Program-made: the position numbers and the translations under genes
Shown: piece by piece, positions 55,522 to 56,352 of the stretch
Layout: each line of letters starts with the position of its first letter
How positions within the stretch are numbered: the stretch's first letter is position 1
Notes under the pieces: generated by a model
The model's database searches: none
What the model saw: the letters and a program-made list of their open reading frames with translations, nothing else
What the model was told of the DNA's origin: nothing
From: Escherichia coli
GTDB taxonomy: Bacteria > Pseudomonadota > Gammaproteobacteria > Enterobacterales > Enterobacteriaceae
DNA length: 64,000 nt
Assembly: GCF_030013595.1 (NCBI RefSeq)
Contig: NZ_CP122768.1
Reading direction: 5' to 3' (one strand)

Positions 55522-56352
55522 TTACGCGGAGCGAGACGCTGTCGCCCCTGCGCGTGGTGGCAGAGCAAATGCCACCAGCGCCGGGATGAGATAAATAAAC
55601 CAGACGGCGACTTCGCTGACACTTGGCGCTTCCTGATAGCCAAAAATCCCTTCCATCAGCGTGCCAAACAGCGAGTGAGTTGAGAGCACCGCGCTCATAT
55701 CGAAGGCGATTTCCTGAAAGTGGTTCCACAATCCGGCTTCATGAAATGCGCGAATGGCACCAGCCGCCAGCCCTGCGGCGACGAAGAGAATAAACAGGCT
55801 GGTCCATTTAAAAAATGCACCAAGATTGAGGCGAATACCGCCCCAGTAGAGCAGGAAGCCGAGCACCACGGCTGTAGCAAGACCGAGCATTGCACCCAGC
55901 GGCGGCCAGATCCCGACATCTTGTTGAAACGCCGCCAGCAGGAAAAAGACCGACTCCAGCCCCTCCCTTGCAACGGCAAAAAAGACCATCATCACCAGCG
56001 CCCAGCCATGATGATTCCCACGCTGCAATGCGCTATCGACTGCCTGCTCCAGTTGTACTTTGACGTTGCGCGACACTTTGCGCATCCAGAAAACCATCCA
56101 GGTAAGGATCACCACGGCGATCACCGCCACGATACCTTCAAACAGTTCCTGTTCTTTTTGCGGAAATTCGCCGGTGGTTTCGTTAATGAAGATACCCAAG
56201 CCCAGGCACAACGCAGCGGCAAGCAACACGCCAATCCACATCACACCAATCCATCGGCCTCGCTGGGTACGCTTAAGATAGCTGGCAATCAAACTGACAA
56301 TCAGCGCGGCTTCAAGTCCTTCGCGCAACATAATGAGAAATGGAACAAACAT
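55522..56352 (-). CDS. efeU: Ferrous iron permease EfeU (FTR1/OFeT family), apparently intact
   Basis: Uninterrupted frame MFVPFLIMLREGLEAALIVSLIAS... containing two REGLE motifs (REGLEAAL, REGLESVF). Confidence 0.88.
   Translation of the reverse strand: MFVPFLIMLREGLEAALIVSLIASYLKRTQRGRWIGVMWIGVLLAAALCLGLGIFINETTGEFPQKEQELFEGIVAVIAVVILTWMVFWMRKVSRNVKVQLEQAVDSALQRGNHHGWALVMMVFFAVAREGLESVFFLLAAFQQDVGIWPPLGAMLGLATAVVLGFLLYWGGIRLNLGAFFKWTSLFILFVAAGLAAGAIRAFHEAGLWNHFQEIAFDMSAVLSTHSLFGTLMEGIFGYQEAPSVSEVAVWFIYLIPALVAFALPPRAGATASRSA

What the first reader, a model, noticed from the sequence alone, without database searches (positions are those of the whole stretch)
55522..56352. efeU reading frame is intact
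The FTR1-type permease frame is uninterrupted and contains both REGLE motifs. I recall the K-12 allele being frameshifted and cryptic, so this strain would have a functional EfeUOB ferrous-iron uptake system and is not K-12-like at this locus.
Basis: partly seen in the sequence, partly recalled or inferred. Interest (0 to 1): 0.3.

Follow-up and report, generated by a model that had tools for sequence, protein, structure and literature searches.

The report
Intact efeU iron permease gene
This E. coli strain has the normal, uninterrupted efeU iron-permease gene; the broken copy in laboratory strain K-12 is the exception, so the finding is correct but ordinary.

Summary

- **The gene:** Window 55522-56352, on the minus strand, is an uninterrupted 831-bp, 276-aa ORF. 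It scores as EfeU (NCBIfam equivalog 331 bits against a cutoff of 255; Pfam FTR1 E=1.8e-89). REGLE motifs sit at residues 10-14 and 129-133.
- **The operon:** Intact efeO and efeB follow it. A Fur-box-like site lies 60-76 bp upstream.
- **K-12 comparison:** K-12 MG1655 efeU (b4490) is annotated as a pseudogene. It lacks one G of a GG pair (window 56246-56247) and ends after 36 codons. The other 12 differences are all synonymous.
- **Population:** Among 5,426 complete E. coli genomes, 368 carry the exact K-12 deletion 60-mer. The 60 listed are mostly named K-12 laboratory strains, and none is evidently a wild isolate. The exact intact 61-mer of this window occurs in 3,637 genomes.
- **Function:** The encoded EfeU is 100% identical to the EfeU of an O157:H7 genome. 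That is the serotype in which EfeUOB was shown to work as a low-pH Fe2+ transporter (Cao et al. 2007).

This is the common wild-type state of a known system, so interest is low.

Side observations:
- an IS10-type element splits pgaB;
- an RtT-like 179-bp tandem array sits beside serX;
- a ~32-kb segment is present that K-12 lacks.

The parts
55522..56352 (-). efeU CDS, intact. 276-aa FTR1/EfeU-type inner-membrane iron permease with about 7 hydrophobic segments.
   Evidence: ORF list. NCBIfam NF041756 EfeU 331 bits and Pfam PF03239 E=1.8e-89. Hydropathy peaks. Protein identical to WP_000497942.1 of O157:H7 and of strain HCP5S3_I2.
56246..56247 (-). The GG dinucleotide (gene positions 106-107, codons 35/36) of which K-12 lacks one G. 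This is the site of the K-12 frameshift.
   Evidence: Pairwise alignment of window efeU against MG1655 b4490.
56311..56325 (-). First REGLE motif (aa 10-14), in the first hydrophobic segment.
   Evidence: Regex on the translation; read directly in the sequence.
55954..55968 (-). Second REGLE motif (aa 129-133), in the fourth hydrophobic segment (aa 119-137, Kyte-Doolittle mean 1.59).
56412..56428 (-). Fur-box-like site TAATGATAATCGCTATC, 15 of 17 matches to the core consensus, 60-76 bp upstream of the efeU ATG. It is invariant among the window, K-12 and HCP5S3_I2.
   Evidence: Pattern search: 1 hit in 64 kb against 0.01 expected. Alignment. The consensus used is from my own knowledge. Fur regulation of efeUOB is stated in PMC3832793.
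56354..56365 (-). Purine-rich Shine-Dalgarno-like stretch (AAGGGTGGGTGG) directly upstream of the ATG.
   Evidence: Read from the sequence; inference only.
54337..55464 (-). efeO, intact, 375 aa. Periplasmic cupredoxin plus imelysin (M75) protein with an N-terminal signal-like sequence.
   Evidence: NF007697 773.6 bits; Pfam Cupredoxin_1 and Peptidase_M75. 2 aa differences from O157:H7 and 3 from K-12.
53060..54331 (-). efeB, intact, 423 aa. DyP-type haem peroxidase/deferrochelatase with a twin-arginine signal (SRRRLLKG).
   Evidence: TIGR01412 615 bits; Pfam Dyp_perox_N and Dyp_perox_C. N-terminus printed. 8 aa differences from O157:H7 and 9 from K-12.

Best explanation
This is the ordinary wild-type efeUOB operon of a non-K-12 E. 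coli. efeU encodes a complete Ftr1-type inner-membrane iron permease with two REGLE motifs. efeO (periplasmic cupredoxin/M75 protein) and efeB (Tat-exported DyP haem peroxidase) follow it in one operon. In the published model, the periplasmic partners handle and oxidise Fe2+ and iron is passed through EfeU. This supports growth under aerobic, acidic, low-iron conditions. Expression is repressed by Fur-Fe2+ and, at high pH, by CpxR. Shown here: the frame is intact, the family assignment holds, the K-12 difference is a single base, the protein is identical to O157:H7 EfeU, and the upstream region is conserved. Inferred: actual transport activity and regulation in this strain.
For: Intact 831-bp ORF with both REGLE motifs. 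EfeU, EfeO and EfeB all score above the curated NCBIfam cutoffs and have the expected Pfam domains. K-12 efeU is annotated as a frameshifted pseudogene, and the only frame-changing difference is one G. The 12 other differences are all synonymous. The EfeU protein is 100% identical to that of an O157:H7 genome. EfeUOB was reported functional in O157:H7 and Nissle 1917 and cryptic in K-12 (Cao 2007 and Grosse 2006, as cited in PMC2808357, PMC3832793 and PMC7549933). A Fur-like box lies 60-76 bp upstream against a chance expectation of 0.01, and about 350 bp upstream of efeU is nearly identical to K-12. The intact allele is the majority state in 5,426 genomes.
Against: EfeB differs from the O157:H7 protein at 8 residues and EfeO at 2, and the effect of these changes is untested. 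The simple sigma-70 scan found no consensus promoter directly upstream of efeU. That scan is strict, and the region is conserved with strains in which the operon is expressed. The primary papers (Cao 2007, Grosse 2006) were not in the held library, so their content is taken from citing papers.
Confidence: 0.9

Rival explanations
1. The frame is intact but the system does not work in this strain, because of missense changes in EfeO or EfeB or altered regulation. One candidate for altered regulation is the ~123-bp repeat inserted in the putP-efeU spacer.
For: EfeB has 8 and EfeO 2 substitutions relative to O157:H7. The spacer carries a ~123-bp insertion relative to K-12.
Against: All three proteins are identical to those annotated in another natural isolate, HCP5S3_I2, and all score far above the equivalog cutoffs. 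Most EfeB differences from O157:H7 lie at the N-terminal signal region or the extreme C-terminus (positions 6, 48, 412, 418, 422), and five of the eight are also differences from K-12 EfeB. The insertion lies more than 430 bp upstream of the ATG, beyond the conserved Fur-box and promoter region.
Confidence: 0.06
2. The apparent intact frame is a sequencing or assembly artefact, such as a spurious extra G, in a strain that really has the K-12 allele.
For: The difference is a single base in a GG pair.
Against: The identical 61-mer occurs in 3,637 independent complete genomes. The window also differs from K-12 at 12 synonymous sites in efeU, by a ~32-kb segment that K-12 lacks, and in the spacer. 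It is therefore not a K-12 strain. GG is not an error-prone homopolymer.
Confidence: 0.01

Closest known systems
EfeUOB (YcdNOB) of E. coli O157:H7 (Cao et al. 2007, Mol Microbiol 65:857) and EfeU of E. coli Nissle 1917 (Grosse et al. 2006, Mol Microbiol 62:120)
   Same: The EfeU protein is 276/276 identical to the EfeU of an O157:H7 genome (strain PV15-279). The efeU-efeO-efeB order is the same, as is the position between putP and phoH. EfeO is 373/375 and EfeB 415/423 identical.
   Different: There are 13 silent nucleotide differences in efeU. O157:H7 has a 1,344-bp hypothetical gene in the putP-efeU spacer that is absent here. This window instead has a ~123-bp repeat element there.
efeU (b4490, formerly ycdN) pseudogene of E. 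coli K-12 MG1655
   Same: Same locus and neighbours. 818 of 830 aligned bases are identical, and the promoter-proximal region and Fur-like box are identical.
   Different: K-12 lacks one G at gene position 106/107. This gives MFVPF...RGRWIV* (36 aa) and loses six of the seven transmembrane segments and the second REGLE.
Yeast Ftr1p/Fet3p oxidase-permease high-affinity iron uptake
   Same: Same permease family (Pfam FTR1) with paired REXLE motifs. Per the literature, iron is oxidised outside the membrane before permeation (PMC3832793).
   Different: The partner here is not a multicopper oxidase. It is a cupredoxin/M75 protein plus a DyP haem peroxidase.

Membership tests
EfeU / FTR1-type iron permease | Profile-HMM match above the curated cutoff over the full length | tested here: met
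   NF041756 EfeU equivalog 331.2 bits (cutoff 255), aa 5-262 of 276. TIGR00145 351.7 bits (cutoff 303.8). PF03239 300.3 bits.
EfeU / FTR1-type iron permease | Two REXLE (REGLE) motifs within transmembrane segments | tested here: met
   REGLE at aa 10-14 in hydrophobic segment 5-23, and at aa 129-133 in segment 119-137.
EfeU / FTR1-type iron permease | Polytopic membrane topology (about 7 TM helices) | tested here: met
   Kyte-Doolittle window-19 peaks at aa 5-23, 38-56, 70-88, 119-137 (1.59, just under the 1.6 threshold), 152-170, 185-203 and 248-266. This is hydropathy only. No structure was predicted, and no PDB relative was found by sequence.
EfeUOB operon | efeU followed in the same orientation by efeO (cupredoxin + M75) and efeB (Tat-signal DyP peroxidase), all intact | tested here: met
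   ORFs 54337-55464 and 53060-54331 on the minus strand. EfeO 773.6 bits and EfeB 615.2 bits. RRRLLKG twin-arginine motif.
EfeUOB operon | Iron (Fur) regulation signal upstream | tested here: met
   A 15/17 match to the Fur-box core at 56412-56428, against 0.01 expected by chance, conserved in K-12. Binding was not tested.
EfeUOB operon | Low-pH Fe2+ uptake activity | not testable with these tools
   Inferred from 100% EfeU identity to the O157:H7 protein. That serotype's operon was reported functional.
K-12-type cryptic efeU allele | Single-G deletion at gene position 106/107 giving a premature stop at codon 37 | tested here: not met
   The window has GG where K-12 has G, so the window is not the K-12 allele.

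The most novel reading that the evidence does not exclude
The strain-specific ~123-bp multi-copy repeat in the putP-efeU spacer (window ~56780-56905, with a 15-bp-stem hairpin at 56888-56925) might alter efeUOB or putP expression relative to strains that lack it. This spacer varies between lineages: K-12 has a short form, this strain has the repeat, and O157:H7 has a 1.3-kb gene there.
Probability: 0.03. Interest if true: 0.15.

Novelty: already known. Interest (0 to 1): 0.05.

Why it matters
It matters little. An intact efeUOB is the usual state in natural E. coli, and the K-12 frameshift has been documented since 2006-2007. The practical point is only that this strain should not be modelled on K-12 for ferrous-iron uptake at low pH. 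The zero-nonsynonymous, 12-synonymous pattern between this allele and K-12 also fits a recent inactivation in K-12.

Tried and rejected
- **Primary papers:** I tried to read Cao et al. 2007 by DOI, but it is not held.
- **Solved structures:** A sequence search of the PDB for an EfeU/Ftr1 relative found none at E<=0.01.
- **Rfam scan:** The scan of 52.5-59.5 kb found only two sub-threshold REP-like naRNA4 hits and no regulatory RNA at efeU.
- **Promoter scan:** The consensus sigma-70 scan found no site just upstream of efeU. That scan is strict, so this is not informative.
- **K-12 exclusivity:** I could not establish whether the 368 genomes with the K-12 deletion are all K-12 derivatives. Only the 60 best rows are listed. 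Most are named K-12 laboratory strains, a few have uninformative names, and none is evidently a wild isolate.
- **Source strain:** A search with the IS10-pgaB junction found no complete genome that shares it.
- **Failed comparison:** A protein comparison of ycdU failed on wrong coordinates. The ORF list answered the question instead.
- **Not used:** I did not run structure prediction or the large protein searches, because the family assignment is unambiguous.

Full report
**Observation**

The coordinates 55522-56352 delimit an uninterrupted ORF exactly, on the minus strand. The ATG is the complement of 56350-56352. The ORF is 831 bp and encodes 276 aa. An in-frame GTG three codons upstream also exists. 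RefSeq annotators use the ATG for the identical gene in other genomes.

The translation carries REGLE at residues 10-14 and 129-133. It scores as EfeU well above the curated thresholds:
- NCBIfam equivalog NF041756: 331.2 bits against a cutoff of 255.
- TIGR00145: 351.7 bits against a cutoff of 303.8.
- Pfam FTR1: E=1.8e-89.

Hydropathy analysis gives seven hydrophobic segments, with the two REGLE motifs in the first and the fourth.

**Context**

Two intact genes lie directly downstream on the same strand:
- efeO (54337-55464, 375 aa) has cupredoxin and imelysin/M75 domains.
- efeB (53060-54331, 423 aa) is a DyP peroxidase with an SRRRLLKG twin-arginine signal.

The flanking genes are phoH and putP/putA, as in every E. 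coli genome I examined. A Fur-box-like sequence, TAATGATAATCGCTATC, lies 60-76 bp upstream of the ATG at 56412-56428. It is the only hit in the 64-kb window at up to 2 mismatches, against 0.01 expected by chance. It is invariant between this window, K-12 and the closest genome.

**Comparison with K-12**

The reference MG1655 record annotates efeU (b4490) as a pseudogene of 830 bp. A second MG1655 assembly flags it as 'frameshifted'.

Global alignment of the two genes shows 13 differences. One is a deletion in K-12 of one G from a GG pair at gene positions 106-107 (window 56246-56247). The other 12 are substitutions. The K-12 product ends as ...RGRWIV* after 36 codons, before the second transmembrane segment. 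If the G is restored in silico, all 12 substitutions are synonymous. This fits a recent inactivation in K-12 of a gene that is otherwise under purifying selection.

**How common is each state?**

I searched allele-specific 60/61-mers centred on the indel against 5,426 complete E. coli genomes.
- The exact K-12 form is present in 368 genomes. Most of the 60 listed are named K-12 laboratory strains (MG1655, DH5alpha, DH1, C600, J53, NCM3722 and others). A few have uninformative names, and none is evidently a wild isolate.
- The exact form of this window is present in 3,637 genomes, from O157:H7, EAEC 042, and poultry, pig and human isolates.
- Most of the remainder match at 98.4% identity. The four listed non-K-12 examples of this kind span 61 bases in the record, so they keep the intact length and differ by a substitution.

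The intact allele is therefore the species norm, and the K-12 allele is the exception.

**Function**

The encoded EfeU is 276/276 identical to WP_000497942.1. That is the EfeU of an O157:H7 genome and of the closest overall match, pig isolate HCP5S3_I2. EfeO differs from O157:H7 at 2 residues and EfeB at 8, mostly at the termini.

The literature I could read makes the following statements:
- The MG1655 transporter is non-functional because of a frameshift in efeU (PMC2808357, citing Grosse 2006).
- The operon is repressed at high pH through CpxR (PMC3852070).

The primary papers themselves were not available. I therefore commit, at about 0.9, to this being a working EfeUOB system of the standard kind. 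Transport itself remains inferred.

**Rivals**

- 'Intact but inactive' (about 0.06) rests only on untested missense differences in EfeO and EfeB and on a distal spacer insertion.
- 'Sequencing artefact' (about 0.01) is excluded for practical purposes. The allele is shared by thousands of genomes, and the window is clearly not K-12 elsewhere either.

**Novelty**

This is already known. An intact efeU in a non-K-12 strain would not surprise a specialist, and it opens no new question. Interest is 0.05.

**Other things seen**

- **Closest genome.** The window matches E. coli HCP5S3_I2 at 99.92-99.96% identity, apart from one 1,329-bp insertion.
- **IS element in pgaB.** That insertion (47644-48972) is an IS10/ISVsa5-type IS4-family element with a 402-aa transposase ORF. 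It is flanked by a 9-bp direct repeat, GGTCTGGTT. It splits pgaB into ORFs of 370 and 311 aa. No complete genome shares the junction.
- **Tandem array at serX.** Beside tRNA-Ser(GGA) (8072-8159) lies a 179-bp x 4.4 tandem array with 99% matches. Each unit begins with the 3' end of the tRNA. Homologous units elsewhere are annotated 'RtT sRNA'.
- **Segment missing from K-12.** Roughly 10.05-42.06 kb of the window carries the following genes:
  - fatty-acid/polyketide-synthase-like genes;
  - an ABC/LolA-like export set;
  - a two-partner secretion pair;
  - a chaperone-usher fimbrial operon;
  - an EAL-domain protein.

  The same genes are present in the same place in O157:H7. In K-12 this place is occupied by IS3D and the ymdE pseudogene.
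- **putP-efeU spacer.** It contains a ~123-bp insertion relative to K-12. The insertion belongs to a multi-copy repeat with a median of 3 places per genome.
- **ycdU.** The gene is intact here (328 aa) but annotated as frameshifted in the closest genome.

Noticed in passing
window 47644-48972 (flanking repeats 47635-47643 and 48973-48981): A 1,329-bp IS10/ISVsa5-type (IS4 family) insertion sequence with a 402-aa transposase ORF (47751-48959, +). It has a 9-bp target-site duplication, GGTCTGGTT. It interrupts pgaB, the PGA biofilm polysaccharide deacetylase gene, leaving ORFs of 370 aa (46535-47647) and 311 aa (48956-49891). None of the 5,426 complete E. coli genomes shares this junction, so PGA production is probably impaired specifically in this strain.
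   Followed up: yes
window 8072-8937: tRNA-Ser(GGA) (serX, 8072-8159) is followed by a tandem array of 4.4 copies of a 179-bp unit (8145-8937, 99% matches). Each unit starts with the last ~17 nt of the tRNA and a terminator-like hairpin. Homologous units in other genomes are annotated 'RtT sRNA' and occur at 1-11 places per genome in 3,374 of 5,426 genomes.
   Followed up: partly
window ~10055-42060: A ~32-kb segment lies between ycdU and dgcT. It carries FAS/PKS-like genes (ketoacyl synthases, ACP, FabZ-like, AcpS, malonyltransferase), ABC and LolA-like export genes, a two-partner secretion pair (1,270-aa exoprotein plus a ShlB/FhaC-family transporter), a chaperone-usher fimbrial operon and an EAL-domain protein. 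It is present at the same place in O157:H7. K-12 has only IS3D and the ymdE pseudogene there, which suggests an IS3-associated deletion in K-12. From memory this corresponds to O-island 47 of EDL933; I did not verify that.
   Followed up: partly
window ~56780-56925: The putP-efeU spacer holds a ~123-bp insertion relative to K-12. It is part of a ~150-bp repeat found at a median of 3 and up to 8 places per E. coli genome. A 15-pair GC-rich hairpin sits at 56888-56925. The family name was not established (possibly RSA or Box C type, from memory). O157:H7 has a 1,344-bp hypothetical gene in the same spacer.
   Followed up: partly
window 9071-10057 (-): ycdU is an intact 328-aa ORF here. The otherwise 99.9%-identical genome HCP5S3_I2 has it annotated as frameshifted (986 bp).
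   Followed up: partly
window 52954-52988 and 56556-56592 (-): Two sub-threshold Rfam naRNA4 matches (33.4 and 27.2 bits against a gathering score of 59.5). They look like REP-type palindromic elements downstream of efeB and in the putP-efeU spacer.
   Followed up: no
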